Below, in pieces: positions 1 to 4,035 of a stretch of 4,074 bases of DNA (positions are counted from its first letter, which is position 1; each line of letters begins with the position of its first letter). A program made the translations under genes and the position numbers. The notes below the pieces were generated by a model, which ran no database searches, was not told the DNA's origin, and was given only the letters and a program-made list of their open reading frames with translations. Origin of the DNA: a virus (taxonomy: Duplodnaviria > Heunggongvirae > Uroviricota > Caudoviricetes); the IMG/VR virus record IMGVR_UViG_3300029241_000103, positions 1-4,074 of that record. One strand, 5' to 3'.

Positions 1-170
1 TGATGCCTGAAAAAACTGGTGTTTACTGGAATTCTCGGTTTAGCATTGCTCCTATGCTCGATAGGATGTACCGTTTTTGAAAAACAAGTAGTTATACACT
101 TTGTGGGAGCCTATTGGGAACCCGGTGTTTTCATTTCAAGGTGTAATCCATGCGGGGCATCAGAATGAGA

Positions 171-176
171 TATAAT
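171..176 (+). promoter_or_regulatory. Candidate sigma70 -10 hexamer (TATAAT) upstream of the 206..742 ORF
   Basis: Exact consensus TATAAT at 171-176, about 30 nt upstream of the ATG at 206. No good -35 is found at 16-18 bp spacing and there is no TG extension, so this is a -10 match only. Confidence 0.3.
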
Positions 177-205
177 GAGATTTTTAGTGTTCCGCTTGAG
201 AGTCT

Positions 206-742
206 ATGATGCTTACCCTAGACGAGATAGGTCAATCTGTACGTAACAATATCCAGTTGATTATTGATCATGTCGGCTTACCTCTTGCTGTTGGTCCGCT
301 CAGTGATGATGATTACAAGATTCTGTGTGGTGGCTATGGTGAGCTTGAATGGGACTATGCGTTAAGCACCTATGGCAACTCCAGAGAAAAGTATGAGTTC
401 TGCATAAAACTTGTTCAGCAAGGTCGGGTTCAGGGAATACCATCAGGAGCAGCAATTTGTGTTTATGGGGTTGAAGAAAACATCTTTCGTATCCATATGA
501 TCGAAAGGTTTTCTAGAGAAGATGAATCTCACCCATTGAAAGGGCGCATGGTTTTACTCACTCTTATGAGTGCTTTTATATTTTGTAAAGCTGTTGAATG
601 TAAAGTTGTCCACATTGTAGAGCCAGTACCAGAACTGGTGCAGTATTACGAGTCTTTTGGTTTCCGCATGGAACAGTGCGGTTATGTGATGTCTGCAGTC
701 ATTGATGAGCTGCAGGATATCTTTCTTAAATTTGCTCAGTAG
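206..742 (+). CDS. Hypothetical protein, 178 aa, with a GNAT-like C-terminal motif (possible divergent acyl/acetyltransferase fold)
   Basis: Uninterrupted ORF ending at TAG 740-742. A weak SD (GAGAG, 198-202) precedes tandem ATGs at 206 and 209; the spacing favours 209. The segment PELVQYYESFGF resembles GNAT motif B (A-x-x-x-Y-E-x-x-G-F), and the predicted strand/helix order fits a GNAT fold. The glycine-rich motif A (R/Q-x-x-G-x-G/A) is not clearly present (HPLKGRMVLL). Looks AT-richer than the phage genes by eye. Confidence 0.55.
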   Translation: MMLTLDEIGQSVRNNIQLIIDHVGLPLAVGPLSDDDYKILCGGYGELEWDYALSTYGNSREKYEFCIKLVQQGRVQGIPSGAAICVYGVEENIFRIHMIERFSREDESHPLKGRMVLLTLMSAFIFCKAVECKVVHIVEPVPELVQYYESFGFRMEQCGYVMSAVIDELQDIFLKFAQ

Positions 743-759
743 GTATAGACGAGAAGGGT

Positions 760-772
760 CTACAAATTGTAG
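760..772. promoter_or_regulatory. 13-bp palindrome CTACAAATTGTAG (6-bp arms, 1-nt centre), candidate protein-binding site
   Basis: Read directly: CTACAA (760-765), A, TTGTAG (767-772) is a perfect inverted repeat. It overlaps a 5-bp stem hairpin TAGAC-N7-GTCTA (746-762) just after the stop of the 206..742 ORF. Confidence 0.3.
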
Positions 773-847
773 GATACCCGTCCAGATTACCTTAAAGGTA
801 CATCTATGGCAGTCGTTTTGTGCTTAAACTACTAAGAAACGATGTCA

Positions 848-894
848 CCAATCGACATGATCGATTGGCATAAGTTAGCTAAACAAGCTAGCTT
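848..894 (+). promoter_or_regulatory. Candidate operator and promoter upstream of the small ORF
   Basis: Inverted repeat CCAATCGA-N5-TCGATTGG (848-868) overlaps a -35-like TTGGCA (865-870). After an 18-nt spacer comes a -10-like TAGCTT (889-894). The palindrome AGCTAGCT (886-893) lies in the spacer and -10 region. Confidence 0.3.
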
Positions 895-938
895 TAAAGA
901 GAGGGTTAGAGACGCCTTTACTGTCTCGGGAGTTTTCT

Positions 939-1112
939 ATGAAAGATCAAAAAGCAACCAAGCCACAGGTTAAGTTCGACACAATGAAAGCATTCGCAGG
1001 TATGGGTGCTGCTGTTGAAGTTCTGATGAAGGCTGCTCCTAATGCGTTCACTCACGCTACTGTCTCTGGTAAAGAGCAGCAGGGTAAGCTTCGTCGTCGC
1101 AAAGCAGCATGA
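939..1112 (+). CDS. Small hypothetical protein, 57 aa (MKDQKATKPQVKFDTMKAFAGMGAAVEVLMKAAPNAFTHATVSGKEQQGKLRRRKAA), basic C-terminal tail
   Basis: Not in the supplied ORF track (presumably below its length cutoff); translated by hand. ATG at 939 follows SD GGGAG (928-932) with a 6-nt spacer. Stop is TGA at 1110-1112. Codon choice is typical of well-expressed enterobacterial genes (GGT, GCT, CGT, GTT, CTG, AAA, GAA). An intrinsic terminator follows 23 nt downstream. Confidence 0.5.
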   Translation: MKDQKATKPQVKFDTMKAFAGMGAAVEVLMKAAPNAFTHATVSGKEQQGKLRRRKAA

Positions 1113-1131
1113 TCATAGCTGGTGCTTTTTG

Positions 1132-1160
1132 AAAACCCGCCTTTAGGCGGGTTTTTTCTT
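1132..1160. terminator. Rho-independent (intrinsic) terminator, probably bidirectional, between convergent genes
   Basis: Stem CCCGCC (1136-1141), loop TTTA, stem GGCGGG (1146-1151), then TTTTTT (1152-1157) on the plus strand. AAAA (1132-1135) precedes the stem, so the minus strand reads hairpin then TTTTC. The minus-strand gene's stop (TAA, 1160-1162) sits immediately upstream of the hairpin in that orientation. Confidence 0.8.
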
Positions 1161-1441
1161 TAGTGATGTTCTTTGCCCTTCTGTTTGCTTGTTCTGACCT
1201 GTTCCCACTCGATACGTCCTTCTTCTCGTCTTTTGTCTATGTATTCCGCAAGATCCTGAATATTGATGCAACGTTTTGCTTTTTGTGATGTGCCGATGCG
1301 ATATGTTGGAACGGGCAACTTACAAGCGTTTGCTTTTGCTTCTGCCGTGGCTGGACTCATGCCAAAGTACTTTTGGCTAACTGCTGAGAGTTCAATGTTA
1401 GGGGTATTGAATTCAGCCATCAGTAAAAACAAGGTGTTCAT
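1160..1441 (-). CDS. PrtN-family / excisionase-like small DNA-binding protein (about 93 aa)
   Basis: The N-terminus MNTLFLLMAEF... and the segment ...KLPVPTYRIGTSQKAKRCINIQDLAEYID match, from memory, the conserved pattern of PrtN (pyocin activator) / phage Xis-like proteins. Start chosen as ATG at 1441, preceded by GGAG with a 6-nt spacer. The longer GTG-initiated reading to 1468 was not used. Confidence 0.65.
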   Translation of the reverse strand: MNTLFLLMAEFNTPNIELSAVSQKYFGMSPATAEAKANACKLPVPTYRIGTSQKAKRCINIQDLAEYIDKRREEGRIEWEQVRTSKQKGKEHH

Positions 1442-1477
1442 AATTTTCTCCATCAAAACCGGCTGCACCCGGGAAAA

Positions 1478-2050
1478 TCATAATTCTGTGCTGGTGGCAG
1501 GAATTAATTTCTGCCAGATAGCGGAAACATATTTTGCCTGATGACGGGCATCGGCCAGGGCGTTGTGCCGTTCGCCATCGAAAGGCATGTCCATTTTGGG
1601 GTCGAATCCGATGGAACGCCCAAGCGTAACGATCGTGCGTACATCGTGGTCATTCCAGTATGCCCACGGGCAGATTTGTCCTGCTCGCTCATAAGCTCCA
1701 CGTAAAATTACGTTGTCGAAGGTGGCCCCGTTACCCCAGACTTTTAAATATTTCGTATTGGCTGCGTGCCGGTTAATGAAATGATTTAGTTCTGAGAGAG
1801 CATCGCTGATCGACAAAGTATCATCAATACAGATTGCAGCTCGTGCTTCAGGGCTTTGTTTCAACCACCACAGGATGGTATCGCCGTCAGGTGTAGCTCC
1901 TTGCCCCATAGCACTTTCCAGGCTAACAACTGTATAGAATTCTTGTCCGATGTCTCCGGTTTCTGGAGTGAAGAACACCGCGCCAATGGAAACGATCGGT
2001 GCATCCTTATTTTTCCCCATCGTCTCAAGGTCGATCATTAAGTTGTTCAT
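1478..2050 (-). CDS. DEDDh-type (DnaQ-like) 3'-5' exonuclease, phage-encoded, about 190 aa
   Basis: All three Exo motifs can be read: Exo I IDLETMG (D-x-E), Exo II WGNGATFDNVIL (FD), Exo III HNALADARH (H-x-x-x-x-D). Strong SD AGGAGGT lies 6 nt before the ATG at 2050. The ATG overlaps the upstream gene's TGA (minus strand reads TGATG). Confidence 0.85.
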   Translation of the reverse strand: MNNLMIDLETMGKNKDAPIVSIGAVFFTPETGDIGQEFYTVVSLESAMGQGATPDGDTILWWLKQSPEARAAICIDDTLSISDALSELNHFINRHAANTKYLKVWGNGATFDNVILRGAYERAGQICPWAYWNDHDVRTIVTLGRSIGFDPKMDMPFDGERHNALADARHQAKYVSAIWQKLIPATSTEL

Positions 2051-2826
2051 CACTTCACCTCCTGCGGCGGTTCCGGTAGCGGCATCCAGTGAGTTGCTTG
2101 CTCAATACCATTACCCGGCTTAATCGTTGCATCTCCGCGCCGAAAGGTGCTTCCGGTATAGCGTGCGGAGCATATTAGCGGTTCAACCAGAGAGCTATCG
2201 AAATTCACCGAAATAAGCACGTTCTGGCCCTTTTCAGGCATTCGCTCACTACAGCTTATCCAACCATCCGGAGTTACCGGAGAGTTGCCATTTACATCGA
2301 AGTTTGGCTCTGCGTCCTGAACCAGGAGGATGTAACCATTCTTGGCTGTATCAAGTTCTAACGCCTCGGTGACGGTGCCGAAATAGCGATTACCTAAATC
2401 AGCATCACAAGTGCTTACATCAATGGAAACTTCCATGCCTTCGATTAATTCTGGCAAGTTGTAAGTTTGGCTTACAGGTTGGCTACCCTGAAGCATGGCG
2501 GCACGGCAGGCGTTCCAGCCATCAGCATATGTTTCAGTTACACCGTCGAGATGGCAGGTAAGCAAATCCATTTCATCAAGCACTACCAGCGCTGGCGGCG
2601 CGGTGTAAAGCTGGTGCGTTCCATCAGGCAGCGAGTGACCTACATACTCACCGAACCCGTCAACACACATGCACCCATCCTCAATAATGCATGACGCCAC
2701 TGGCTCTGCTTCCAGCGATGCCAGTGCAATTTCATACGACCGGCGCTCAATATTGTCTCGAACGTCCAGGCTGCCTATGCGCTCTTTGATTTCTTTAATC
2801 AGTTCTTTGTCGGTGAAAGTTGTCAT
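2050..2826 (-). CDS. Phage protein with C-terminal DUF551 domain, 258 aa
   Basis: The C-terminal region WISCSERMPEKGQNVLIS...ATHWMPLPEPP matches the DUF551 hallmark (THWMPLPEPP) as I recall it from enterobacterial prophage proteins. ATG at 2826 with SD GAGGA about 7 nt upstream. The acidic, Cys-containing N-terminal 150 aa is unassigned. Confidence 0.75.
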   Translation of the reverse strand: MTTFTDKELIKEIKERIGSLDVRDNIERRSYEIALASLEAEPVASCIIEDGCMCVDGFGEYVGHSLPDGTHQLYTAPPALVVLDEMDLLTCHLDGVTETYADGWNACRAAMLQGSQPVSQTYNLPELIEGMEVSIDVSTCDADLGNRYFGTVTEALELDTAKNGYILLVQDAEPNFDVNGNSPVTPDGWISCSERMPEKGQNVLISVNFDSSLVEPLICSARYTGSTFRRGDATIKPGNGIEQATHWMPLPEPPQEVK

Positions 2827-2829
2827 GTG

Positions 2830-3117
2830 TTAGTCCTCATCCACTTCAACGTCATCTTTCAGCGTGATGCCGTGCCAATCATCAGCCCAACTGGTTAGCC
2901 CTGGCGCATCAATGCTAGGCATATAGACGCTTGCAGTGTGGTAGCCCTTATCGTTATCAATGCTGGCAACGTGCTCGCCGTTGTATGCGCTCAGCGTGTC
3001 CAGGACGCTATAAAACTTTCCTCCGGCTGCCCTGAAATCCTTTACAGCCTTCACAAGGCGATTCCACGCTTTTTCCTGTTCTGGCGTCAGGTCGATTAAT
3101 TCCTGCAAAGTTGCCAT
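2830..3117 (-). CDS. Hypothetical phage protein, 95 aa, strongly acidic C-terminus (…LKDDVEVDED)
   Basis: Start at ATG 3117, preceded by SD AAGGAGAG. It sits 1 nt after the TGA of the upstream gene (minus strand reads TGATATG). The longer track ORF (to 3279) would overlap the Ead/Ea22-like CDS in another frame and was rejected. Confidence 0.7.
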   Translation of the reverse strand: MATLQELIDLTPEQEKAWNRLVKAVKDFRAAGGKFYSVLDTLSAYNGEHVASIDNDKGYHTASVYMPSIDAPGLTSWADDWHGITLKDDVEVDED

Positions 3118-3118
3118 A

Positions 3119-3790
3119 TCACTCTCCTTTGATGCGAATGCCAGCGGCGCGCTCGGCTTCACTTTGTTCCCAAAACCACTTGTGAAGCGCCATAAGCTTT
3201 TCGTCAATCGGTGCATATTTGCGATTAAAGTAGGCCTGAGCATCTTTCTCAGATTCGTCCGGTAATTCGCCAGGGCCAAACAGTGTGTTATAAATCCATG
3301 CCAGTCCGCTTTTAGCGTCGCCAGTTGCCTGCCATTCGATAATGGCAGCCTGCATGACCAGAATGTTTTTCCCGATTAATAGGTCCAGTTCTTTGTACCG
3401 GTTGCGGATGTATGCATTCTCGCTTTGTAATTTTGCGTTGCGCTTCTCTGCGGCTTCCAGCTTGGCTTCTGCATCTTTGGCTCGCATCTGCCAGTTGATA
3501 GCGATGTCGATAACGCTGTTAGCACAACTGGACTCGTTCTCTTCGGCAGCTTTAGCTTCAGAAAGCTCATCAAGCAATCCAAGAACAACAGTTGGCGTGG
3601 CGAGCGTGATAAAACGCATATTGCTCATATGCTCTTCATCGCTAACATCATCGCCAGCCTCGACCGCTGCCATGTGCTGAACATAGCCGCTATCACAGGT
3701 ATTCCAGATTGCCCCTGCCTCGTGACCCCATTCACCATGTAGTGCTTTTTCTGCCGCCTCACGCAGTGCCTGGTAATTAATTTCGCTCAC
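3119..3790 (-). CDS. Ead/Ea22-like family phage protein, 223 aa, with central coiled-coil-like region
   Basis: The N-terminus MSEINYQALREAAEKALHGEW... resembles Ead/Ea22-like proteins of lambdoid prophages (from memory). The central segment EAKAAEE...AKDAEAKLEAAEKRNAKLQSENAYIRNRYKEL looks coiled-coil. Start is GTG at 3790, with a near-perfect SD AAGGAGG 6 nt upstream. GTG overlaps the upstream stop (GTGA). Confidence 0.7.
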   Translation of the reverse strand: MSEINYQALREAAEKALHGEWGHEAGAIWNTCDSGYVQHMAAVEAGDDVSDEEHMSNMRFITLATPTVVLGLLDELSEAKAAEENESSCANSVIDIAINWQMRAKDAEAKLEAAEKRNAKLQSENAYIRNRYKELDLLIGKNILVMQAAIIEWQATGDAKSGLAWIYNTLFGPGELPDESEKDAQAYFNRKYAPIDEKLMALHKWFWEQSEAERAAGIRIKGE

Positions 3791-4035
3791 TGGTTGCCTC
3801 CTTTACGGACTTTACGGATCTGCGCTGCGATGCGCGAAAAAAAAGACTCCCGCGTATGACTGTTAAGAGCTGGCGCGAACGCTGCGTTAAGAACGGCAGC
3901 ATCACAGCCGTCATCGATATAGAGCGCAATTTTTTTCTCCAGGCGCGCTTTGGCTTCCTGCAACTGCATACCCCGGCACGCACGCGGGATATACTCAGCA
4001 ATTTGAGCGATAGATTTTTCGTTCTGTTTAAACAT
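3787..4035 (-). CDS. Hypothetical phage protein, 82 aa
   Basis: ATG at 4035, preceded by SD GAGGTGA. Stop TGA (3789..3787) overlaps the GTG start of the next gene. Translation MFKQNEKSIAQIAEYIPRACRGMQLQ... has no family I can name. Confidence 0.6.
   Translation of the reverse strand: MFKQNEKSIAQIAEYIPRACRGMQLQEAKARLEKKIALYIDDGCDAAVLNAAFAPALNSHTRESFFSRIAAQIRKVRKGGNQ

What the first reader, a model, noticed from the sequence alone, without database searches (positions are those of the whole stretch)
206..742. 178-aa protein with GNAT motif B but no canonical acetyl-CoA pyrophosphate loop
PELVQYYESFGF is a good match to the GNAT motif B helix. The region where motif A should sit (HPLKGRMVLLTLMSAF) lacks the usual Q/R-x-x-G-x-G/A signature. 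The protein could be a divergent GNAT enzyme, for example a GNAT-toxin-like aminoacyl-tRNA acetylase or a small-molecule modifier, or a catalytically inactive GNAT-fold protein. Its size is within the range I recall for GNAT toxins, but there is no upstream RHH/DUF1778-type antitoxin gene, which would be atypical for a TA pair.
Basis: inference. Interest (0 to 1): 0.6.

Follow-up and report, generated by a model that had tools for sequence, protein, structure and literature searches.

The report
Orphan GNAT enzyme with small partner
The 178-codon gene really does encode a GNAT-fold (acetyltransferase-type) protein, from a small uncharacterised family that always travels with a tiny basic protein gene as a mobile add-on cassette of temperate phages; its target is still unknown.

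Summary
The ORF (206..742; the conserved start is the second ATG, 209) is real. It lies at the int/attP-proximal end of an mEp460-like lambdoid phage or prophage of E. coli.

Canonical motif A is absent. In its place, just before helix alpha3, sits a family-conserved loop, H109-P-L-x-G113-R/K. Tyr148 of motif B, Glu100 and Asp/Glu139 are conserved, so an active enzyme is more likely than a dead scaffold.

The main new result is that the 57-aa downstream gene is an obligate partner. A small ORF follows the GNAT gene wherever downstream sequence was available (homologue detected in 101 of 104 loci), including 28-40%-identical relatives in tailocins, satellites and chromosomes. A structured spacer RNA separates the two genes and a terminator ends the unit.

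In E. coli the GNAT cassette (358 genomes) alternates with a Panacea toxin-antitoxin cassette (207 genomes) at the same slot.

Best reading: a two-component phage accessory module, toxin-antitoxin-like or enzyme-substrate. It is not a classical GNAT/RHH pair. Function is untested.

The parts
123..925 (+). Exchangeable cassette: promoter region, GNAT gene and most of the spacer. In phages Lys8385Vzw and SKA5 this stretch is replaced by a Panacea-antitoxin gene plus a 139-aa gene.
   Evidence: blastn shows homology to L020/L021 only for window 1-122 and from 926 onward. Annotation and Pfam of the alternative cargo. GC is 0.39-0.44 here against about 0.50 in the rest of the window.
171..176 (+). 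Perfect -10 hexamer TATAAT, 30 nt upstream of the start codon. Candidate cassette promoter with no good -35. Unverified.
   Evidence: Read directly from the sequence. The consensus scan did not report it because the -35 is weak. Inference only.
209..742 (+). GNAT-fold protein gene, 177 aa from the conserved ATG at 209 (the in-frame ATG at 206 gives 178 aa). PHROG 4350, no Pfam family.
530..547 (+). H109-P-L-K-G113-R114, the loop immediately before helix alpha3. This is where motif A (the pyrophosphate-binding loop) sits in GNATs. Here it is degenerate but conserved within the family.
   Evidence: Secondary structure: beta4 93-101, alpha3 115-130. H109, P110, L111 and G113 are invariant in 41 close members. 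In 39 distant members: L111 33, G113 27, R/K114 33.
629..664 (+). Motif B helix PELVQYYESFGF, with near-invariant Tyr148 as candidate general acid.
   Evidence: Y148 is present in 41/41 close and 38/39 distant members. It aligns with Tyr115 of E. coli RimI in hhalign.
743..938 (+). 196-nt structured spacer RNA between the two genes. Hairpins at 788-800, 848-868, 873-893 and 909-927; the last abuts the Shine-Dalgarno GGGAG at 928-932.
   Evidence: MFE z-score -3.96, 0/200 shuffles as stable. On 16 distinct spacers, 94% of cells are paired, 22 cells have double changes, and 0/500 shuffles reach this. The GAGAC..GTCTC hairpin is present in 16/16. No Rfam match.
939..1112 (+). 57-aa basic (pI 10.5), mostly disordered partner protein. 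PHROG 2741, unknown function.
   Evidence: A homologue lies downstream of the GNAT gene in 101 of 104 loci, and divergent small ORFs are present in the rest that have sequence. dN/dS is 0.05-0.2. AF2 pLDDT 60 with one helix at 15-32. pI.
1131..1156 (+). Intrinsic terminator: an 11-bp G+C-rich stem followed by a T run. It ends the cassette and faces the convergent excisionase gene.

Best explanation
Window 209..742 encodes an acidic 177-aa protein with a genuine GNAT acyl-CoA N-acyltransferase fold. It belongs to a small orphan family that sequence profiles do not connect to any named GNAT family. It is probably catalytically competent, with a variant CoA-pyrophosphate loop HPLxG(R/K) in place of motif A.

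It is the first gene of a self-contained mobile accessory ('moron') cassette. The order is: -10 box, GNAT gene, structured spacer RNA, 57-aa basic disordered protein gene, terminator. This cassette sits in the classical moron slots of temperate phages, tailocins and satellites.

The small protein is the enzyme's obligate direct partner. My preferred mechanism (inferred, not shown) is a toxin-antitoxin-like or exclusion module expressed from the prophage. In it, the GNAT acylates a protein or peptide amine, and the small basic protein occupies or gates its acidic substrate groove as a labile inhibitor. The nearly equal alternative is that the small protein is itself the acetylation substrate.

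Shown: the fold, the conserved residues, the gene pairing, the mobility and the RNA structure.
Inferred: catalysis, physical interaction, toxicity or defence.
For: Fold:
- AF2 pLDDT 91.3, pTM 0.89.
- Foldseek/PDB gives 289 hits at E<=1e-3, and all 50 listed are GNATs.
- BFVD top hits are predominantly annotated GNAT acetyltransferases.

Catalytic competence:
- Y148 is present in 38/39, E100 in 34/39 (Q in 5), and D/E139 in 31/39 of distant members. The HPLxG(R/K) loop is conserved.
- Y148 aligns with RimI Tyr115.
- dN/dS is about 0.05.
- 357 of 358 E. coli copies are full length.

Pairing:
- The small gene is detected downstream in 101 of 104 loci.
- It is also present at 28-42% GNAT identity in phage Eeyore, a P4-like island, metagenomic elements and Shewanella.
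- Overlapping small basic ORFs occur in the most distant chromosomal branch.
- In E. coli the GNAT gene never occurs without the small gene, whereas the small gene occurs without it (358 vs 562 genomes).

Moron and accessory nature:
- Low GC and a terminator.
- Four different insertion contexts.
- The allelic alternative at the same slot is a Panacea-antitoxin cassette.

Partner properties:
- The small protein is disordered and basic (+7.6), against an enzyme at about -10.
Against: - No experiment and no complex model exists.
- Canonical motif A is missing, so CoA use is not proven.
- The two genes are 87-250 nt apart in phage versions, which is unusual for toxin-antitoxin operons.
- The small protein is more conserved than the enzyme (88-98% vs 66-89%). 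This is the reverse of most antitoxins.
- In 204 E. coli genomes the small gene persists next to a different cassette. It may therefore have a GNAT-independent role, or be backbone rather than partner.
- Charge complementarity is not universal: the distant branch has a basic enzyme with a basic small protein. Spearman -0.41, p = 0.18.
- There are no PADLOC hits.
Confidence: 0.5

Rival explanations
1. Enzyme-substrate pair. The GNAT acetylates the small basic protein, at its N-terminus or at lysines, to switch its activity. The small protein is the real effector and binds a conserved host or phage target.
For: - An acidic enzyme is paired with a basic, disordered, Lys/Arg-rich small protein.
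- The small protein is more conserved than the enzyme, as expected if it contacts a conserved target.
- The small gene persists without the GNAT gene.
Against: - No lysine of the small protein is conserved across the whole family. K31 becomes Q or R, and only G49 is universal.
- In the distant branch both proteins are basic.
- There is no direct evidence of modification.
Confidence: 0.3
2. Classical GNAT toxin of the TacT/AtaT/KacT kind. It acetylates aminoacyl-tRNA and arrests translation, with the 57-aa protein as an unconventional antitoxin.
For: - The size is similar.
- The location is a prophage slot that alternatively carries a toxin-antitoxin pair.
- The GNAT gene is never found without the small gene.
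Against: - No RHH/DUF1778 antitoxin is present, and the gene order is reversed.
- The net charge of about -10 is hard to reconcile with tRNA binding. That the known toxins use a basic patch is from my own knowledge.
- There is no match to PADLOC or NCBIfam toxin models.
- Structural similarity to the toxins is no better than to many other GNATs.
Confidence: 0.12
3. A stand-alone small-molecule acyltransferase (polyamine, antibiotic, sugar or metabolite) carried as a fitness gene. The small gene is an unrelated neighbour.
For: SpeG, aminoglycoside, glucosamine and glyphosate acetyltransferases are also among the structural matches. Morons often carry metabolic or resistance genes.
Against: The small gene accompanies the GNAT gene in every context and at every divergence level sampled, including overlapping reading frames. 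This is not expected of an unrelated neighbour.
Confidence: 0.08
4. A catalytically inactive GNAT-fold scaffold, or a GNAT-fold enzyme that uses a donor other than acyl-CoA such as aminoacyl-tRNA or acyl-ACP. Either would explain the missing motif A.
Against: Tyr148, Glu100 and Asp/Glu139 are conserved like catalytic residues. The HPLxG(R/K) loop is the most conserved motif and sits exactly where CoA pyrophosphate is bound in GNATs.
Confidence: 0.1

Closest known systems
GNAT/RHH type II toxin-antitoxin toxins (TacT, AtaT, KacT, ItaT)
   Different: No RHH/DUF1778 antitoxin. The partner is downstream rather than upstream, 87-250 nt away, and has no DNA-binding domain. The enzyme is strongly acidic. 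There is no sequence-profile membership, and motif A is degenerate.
Protein N-terminal acetyltransferases (RimI, Ard1/Naa10, Naa20, NatD/Naa40)
   Different: Identity is only 9-13% and there is no profile match. There is an extra N-terminal helix and a long beta4-alpha3 loop. The gene is encoded in a phage cassette, not a housekeeping locus.
Prophage-encoded immunity genes with an adjacent self-protection gene (e.g. Tai/Ati of phi80; PMC11364771)
   Same: A two-gene unit in prophages, PICIs and P4-like satellites, in accessory slots, with a small neighbouring gene proposed to bind and neutralise the first.
   Different: There is no homology: tblastn of the GNAT against 50,697 phage records finds only mEp460 and Eeyore. 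Here both genes are on the same strand, and no phenotype is known.
Panacea (SocA/PanA) toxin-antitoxin cassettes
   Same: They occupy the same int/attP-xis slot as an alternative allele in E. coli prophages (207 vs 358 genomes) and are followed by the same 57-aa gene and terminator.
   Different: The proteins are unrelated. There the antitoxin comes first and the two genes overlap.
Phage GNAT effectors such as AcrVA5 (acetylates Cas12a) or LUZ19 Rac (acetylates RNA polymerase). Recalled from my own knowledge, not tested here.
   Same: Small GNAT enzymes encoded by phages or prophages that modify a protein lysine of the host or of a defence system.
   Different: These are single genes without a conserved small partner. 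No sequence relation was detected.

Membership tests
GNAT superfamily (fold level) | Mixed alpha/beta fold with the order beta1-alpha1-alpha2-beta2-beta3-beta4-alpha3-beta5-alpha4-beta6-beta7 | tested here: met
GNAT superfamily (sequence families, Pfam clan CL0257) | Significant match to an Acetyltransf_* or related profile | tested here: not met
   No Pfam family at E<=1 for the window protein or for any of 39 distant members. Nothing in NCBIfam. A profile search of 5.8 billion proteins recruits no Pfam-annotated protein. A few UniRef names call members 'N-acetyltransferase domain-containing', which is a source's label only.
GNAT superfamily | Motif A pyrophosphate loop Q/R-x-x-G-x-G/A between beta4 and alpha3 | tested here: not met
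   The canonical string is absent. H109-P-L-K-G113-R occupies the position. G113 is present in 41/41 close and 27/39 distant members.
GNAT superfamily | Motif B helix with a catalytic Tyr and an acidic general base on beta4 or beta5 | tested here: met
   Y148 is present in 38/39, E100 in 34/39 (+5 Q), and D/E139 in 31/39 members. The motif aligns with RimI ...ALYESLGF. The catalytic roles are inferred, not shown.
GNAT superfamily | Binds acyl-CoA and transfers the acyl group to an amine | not testable with these tools
   Needs biochemistry or ligand-aware modelling.
GNAT/RHH type II toxin-antitoxin (TacAT, AtaRT, KacAT) | Upstream, usually overlapping, RHH/DUF1778 antitoxin gene | tested here: not met
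   Upstream are attP/integrase or zur. The 49-aa upstream ORF has no Pfam match. Upstream neighbours differ in every context.
GNAT/RHH type II toxin-antitoxin | Toxin acetylates aminoacyl-tRNA and arrests growth, and the antitoxin neutralises it | not testable with these tools
   Only indirect evidence: net charge about -10 argues against tRNA binding, while obligate pairing with a small disordered protein is compatible with neutralisation.
Phage moron / accessory cassette | Autonomous unit (own promoter and terminator, deviating composition) inserted between conserved phage modules, present or absent among related phages | tested here: met
   - Terminator at 1131-1156.
- GC 0.39-0.44 against about 0.50.
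- Replaced by another cassette in Lys8385Vzw and SKA5.
- Found at attP-xis, Q-lysis, tail-cluster and satellite-int positions.
- The promoter is only a sequence guess.
Known anti-phage defence systems (PADLOC 2.0) | Match to a model of a known or candidate defence protein | tested here: not met
   No hit at E<=1 for the GNAT, the 57-aa protein or the 43-aa ORF.

The most novel reading that the evidence does not exclude
The cassette is a previously undescribed class of two-component phage accessory system. An orphan GNAT enzyme is coupled to a disordered basic mini-protein and a structured RNA. One possibility is an acetylation-based toxin/antitoxin or self-immunity switch, where the small protein is either a degradable plug of the enzyme or its switchable substrate. 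This would be used by prophages, tailocins and satellites for exclusion of competitors. The unusually nucleotide-conserved small-gene region may in addition act as an RNA.
Probability: 0.3. Interest if true: 0.7.

Novelty: new variant of a known kind. Interest (0 to 1): 0.5.

Why it matters
About 6.6% of complete E. coli genomes (358/5426), many Salmonella and Enterobacter genomes, and Photorhabdus/Xenorhabdus tailocin clusters carry this cassette. Neither protein has a name, a Pfam family or a publication.

If the GNAT and its mini-protein form a toxin-antitoxin-like or exclusion module, it would add an acetylation-based, non-RHH architecture to the known GNAT toxin systems. It would also add a new entry to the list of prophage-encoded accessory or defence functions.

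The int/attP-xis slot, which is bi-allelic with a Panacea toxin-antitoxin cassette, is also a tidy natural example of cassette exchange at a prophage hotspot.

Even if the function proves modest, the family deserves a profile model so that it stops being annotated as 'hypothetical protein'.

Tried and rejected
- **Sequence-family searches.** Pfam, NCBIfam, PADLOC and PDB, as single sequence and as profile, gave nothing relevant. The weak PDB hits were to designed armadillo repeats and gp41, and I rejected them as chance.
- **PHROGs.** Only 'unknown function' families 4350 and 2741.
- **afdb50 Foldseek.** Not available.
- **sRNA-17.** This sRNA of the mEp460-like prophage of E. coli RS218 (PMC7719688) looked like a candidate for the spacer. 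Its sequence, taken from the paper's primers, is not in the window.
- **Rfam.** Only sub-threshold terminator look-alikes at 1092-1164.
- **The 43-aa ORF 842..973.** It overlaps the spacer but is not conserved outside close relatives, so I rejected it as a gene.
- **tRNA genes near the Eeyore copy.** None found.
- **Charge co-variation between enzyme and partner.** Suggestive only: the one acidic partner goes with the least acidic enzyme, but the correlation is not significant (rho -0.41, p = 0.18), and the distant basic-basic pairs contradict it.
- **Tai/Ati systems** (PMC11364771). Analogous in layout but not homologous.
- **Literature.** Searches for the protein accessions, PHROG ids and for GNAT-plus-small-protein prophage systems found nothing.

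Full report
**Where the window comes from.**
The window is the int/attP-proximal end of an mEp460-like lambdoid phage of E. coli. It matches phage mEp460 over its first 2,500 bases at 98%.

In mEp460 the order is: integrase (-), attP, gp23 (the 178-aa ORF, +), gp24 (57 aa, +), PrtN-type excisionase (-), Rv2179c-like 3'-5' exonuclease (-), DUF551 protein (-), Ead/Ea22 (-). In E. coli PMV-1 and in Salmonella the prophage sits next to zur, and the ORF is the first prophage gene. The ORF pair is therefore transcribed convergently with the early-left operon, from the prophage end.

**Check of the observation.**
- ORF 206..742.
- PELVQYYESFGF at residues 142-153 (nt 629-664).
- HPLKGRMVLLTLMSAF at residues 109-124 (nt 530-577).
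- No canonical Q/R-x-x-G-x-G/A.
- No upstream antitoxin-like gene.
- A 57-aa gene downstream.

The conserved start is the second ATG (209), as in both public annotations and in the family alignment.

The gene is real. Intact orthologues occur in more than 100 loci, with dN/dS of about 0.05.

**What the protein is.**
Sequence methods find nothing:
- No Pfam, NCBIfam or PADLOC family at E<=1.
- No solved structure by sequence or by profile.
- Only PHROG 4350, of unknown function.

The family is small. There are 54 representatives at 50% identity among 1.84 billion proteins, all about 175-190 aa. Neither the 39 distant members scanned one by one nor a profile search bridges to any annotated GNAT.

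An AlphaFold2 model built on 41 homologues is confident (pLDDT 91.3, pTM 0.89) and has the GNAT strand/helix order plus an extra N-terminal helix. Structure searches agree:
- Foldseek against the PDB gives 289 hits at E<=1e-3, and all 50 listed are GNATs, with TM 0.5-0.6.
- The viral library's top hits are predominantly annotated GNAT acetyltransferases.

So the fold assignment is secure, but no GNAT subfamily stands out as the closest.

**Is it likely to be an enzyme?**
Canonical motif A is absent. The loop directly before helix alpha3, where GNATs bind the CoA pyrophosphate, is H109-P-L-x-G113-R/K. It is invariant in the close family and largely kept in relatives of 20-45% identity: L111 33/39, G113 27/39, R/K114 33/39.

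Across those distant relatives the best conserved residues are W49 (39/39), Y148 (38/39), E100 (34 E plus 5 Q) and position 139 (31 D/E plus 6 N). hhalign against E. coli RimI aligns only motif B and puts Y148 on RimI Tyr115. From published RimI work, as I recall it, that tyrosine is the general acid.

A conserved tyrosine on alpha4 plus acidic residues on beta4 and at the end of beta5 is the usual GNAT catalytic layout. I therefore consider an active acyltransferase more likely than a dead scaffold. CoA use itself is not shown.

The protein is strongly acidic (pI 4.8, net charge about -10). This does not fit a tRNA-binding toxin. That the known toxins use basic patches is from my own knowledge.

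**The partner gene.**
This is the main new result. A homologue of the 57-aa protein lies downstream on the same strand in all 10 species-representative genomes, and in 101 of 104 loci overall. The exceptions are one truncated contig and two loci with a divergent 52-aa ORF.

The pairing holds in quite different settings:
- Inside the tail gene cluster of a Photorhabdus tailocin-like element.
- At the end of a Shewanella prophage.
- Beside the integrase of a P4-like island.
- Downstream of a resolvase in another element.
- Between the Q-like region and the lysis genes in Enterobacter prophages and phage Eeyore. In Eeyore the 53-aa ORF is not annotated.
- In the most distant, chromosomal branch, where a 68-71-aa basic ORF overlaps the end of the GNAT gene.

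The small proteins share a short central helix (G-x-A-V/L-x-x-L-x-K-A-x-P) and a tail E-x-x-G-(K/R)-basic...AA. The window's copy has these properties:
- It is basic (pI 10.5).
- It is under purifying selection (dN/dS 0.05-0.2).
- It is predicted to be mostly disordered, with one helix (pLDDT 60).

Within Enterobacteriaceae it is more conserved than the enzyme (88-98% vs 66-89%).

**The cassette and its slot.**
Lower GC (0.39-0.44 vs about 0.50), a perfect -10 box at 171-176 (sequence only) and a strong terminator at 1131-1156 delimit an autonomous unit.

In phages Lys8385Vzw and SKA5, window 123..925 is replaced by a Panacea/SocA-domain gene plus an overlapping 139-aa gene. The 57-aa gene and terminator stay in place.

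Counts in 5,426 complete E. coli genomes:
- GNAT gene: 358, of which 357 are full length.
- Small gene: 562.
- Complete Panacea cassette: 207.

So the slot is essentially bi-allelic. The GNAT gene is never without the small gene, while the reverse does occur.

**RNA features.**
The 196-nt spacer is more stable than shuffled sequence (z = -3.96). It contains hairpins kept with G-U and compensatory changes in 16 distinct spacers: 94% paired, 22 double-change cells, 0/500 shuffles. A GAGAC...GTCTC hairpin abuts the Shine-Dalgarno sequence in 16/16. Rfam has nothing there.

The small-gene region is an island of 96-100% nucleotide identity in an otherwise 70-88% identical E. coli/Salmonella comparison. 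Its synonymous divergence is far below that of the GNAT gene, for example dS 0.08 vs 1.33. That points to recombination or to an added RNA-level constraint. I could not separate the two.

**Interpretation.**
The evidence supports an obligate two-component accessory cassette built around an orphan, probably active GNAT enzyme.

I favour a toxin-antitoxin-like or exclusion module in which the small disordered protein gates the enzyme. The reasons are:
- The asymmetric dependence between the two genes.
- Overlapping genes in the distant branch.
- A toxin-antitoxin cassette as the alternative allele at the same slot.
- Structural similarity to the GNAT toxins.

An enzyme-substrate relationship is nearly as likely. 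The reasons are:
- The best structural matches are N-terminal acetyltransferases.
- The enzyme is acidic and the partner basic.
- The partner is more conserved than the enzyme.

A classical TacT/AtaT-type system is unlikely, because the antitoxin type, the gene order and the charge are all wrong. An unrelated-neighbour model is contradicted by the pairing data.

Nothing in the searchable literature mentions either protein.

Noticed in passing
window 123-925, compared with L020:2280-3487 (phage Lys8385Vzw) and L021 (phage SKA5): The int/attP-xis slot is bi-allelic in E. coli. The GNAT cassette is in 358 genomes. A Panacea (SocA) antitoxin-domain gene (190 aa) plus an overlapping 139-aa gene is in 207 genomes. 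Both alleles are followed by the same 57-aa gene and terminator.
   Followed up: yes
window 743-938: The inter-cistronic spacer is a conserved structured RNA. Hairpins lie at 788-800, 848-868, 873-893 and 909-927, with G-U and compensatory changes, and z = -3.96. There is no Rfam family. The last hairpin abuts the ribosome-binding site of the small gene, so it may control its translation.
   Followed up: partly
window 939-1112 (roughly 951-1100): The small gene is an island of 96-100% nucleotide identity in E. coli vs Salmonella-type alleles whose flanks are 70-88% identical. Its dS is about 0.08-0.5 where the GNAT gene is saturated. This reflects either separate recombination history or an RNA-level constraint. 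The region plus terminator folds with z = -2.8.
   Followed up: partly
L022:4798-4959 (phage Eeyore, PP925821.1): An unannotated 53-aa ORF homologous to the 57-aa protein lies downstream of the Eeyore GNAT homologue. Several annotated 30-38-aa 'hypothetical proteins' around it (including one overlapping this ORF) had no detectable homologue among the loci searched.
   Followed up: partly
L119-L123 (metagenome-assembled genomes): A distant, basic (pI about 9) chromosomal branch of the family has a 68-71-aa, very basic, Pro/Arg/Lys-rich ORF overlapping the 3' end of the GNAT gene by 14-26 nt. There are no phage genes nearby.
   Followed up: partly
L008-L010, L016, L017 (Photorhabdus) and L013-L015 (Pseudescherichia vulneris): The cassette is inserted inside or at the edge of E217/PAM3-like contractile-tail clusters. 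In these loci a Q antiterminator (plus lysis genes in Pseudescherichia) lies immediately upstream of the tail genes, with no head genes seen in the ~16-kb loci fetched. These are probably tailocins.
   Followed up: no
window 1-122, with the junction near 45: Homology to the PMV-1 prophage starts at window position 45, while mEp460 matches from position 1. The attP core therefore probably lies around 40-60. The window looks like phage or attP-configuration DNA rather than an attL junction next to zur.
   Followed up: no
window 206-211: There are two in-frame ATGs. The family alignment and the public annotations use the second one (209).
   Followed up: yes
elsewhere in mEp460-like prophages, not in the window: The published ArcA-regulated sRNA-17 of E. 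coli K1 RS218 (PMC7719688) maps to the same kind of prophage. Its sequence is absent from this window.
   Followed up: yes
window 1160-4035, minus strand: The rest of the window is ordinary lambdoid early-left cargo: PrtN-type excisionase (1160-1468), Rv2179c-like 3'-5' exonuclease (1478-2053), DUF551 protein (2050-2826), a 95-149-aa unknown ORF (2830-3117), an Ead/Ea22-like protein (3119-3790) and an 82-aa unknown ORF (3787-4035).
   Followed up: partly
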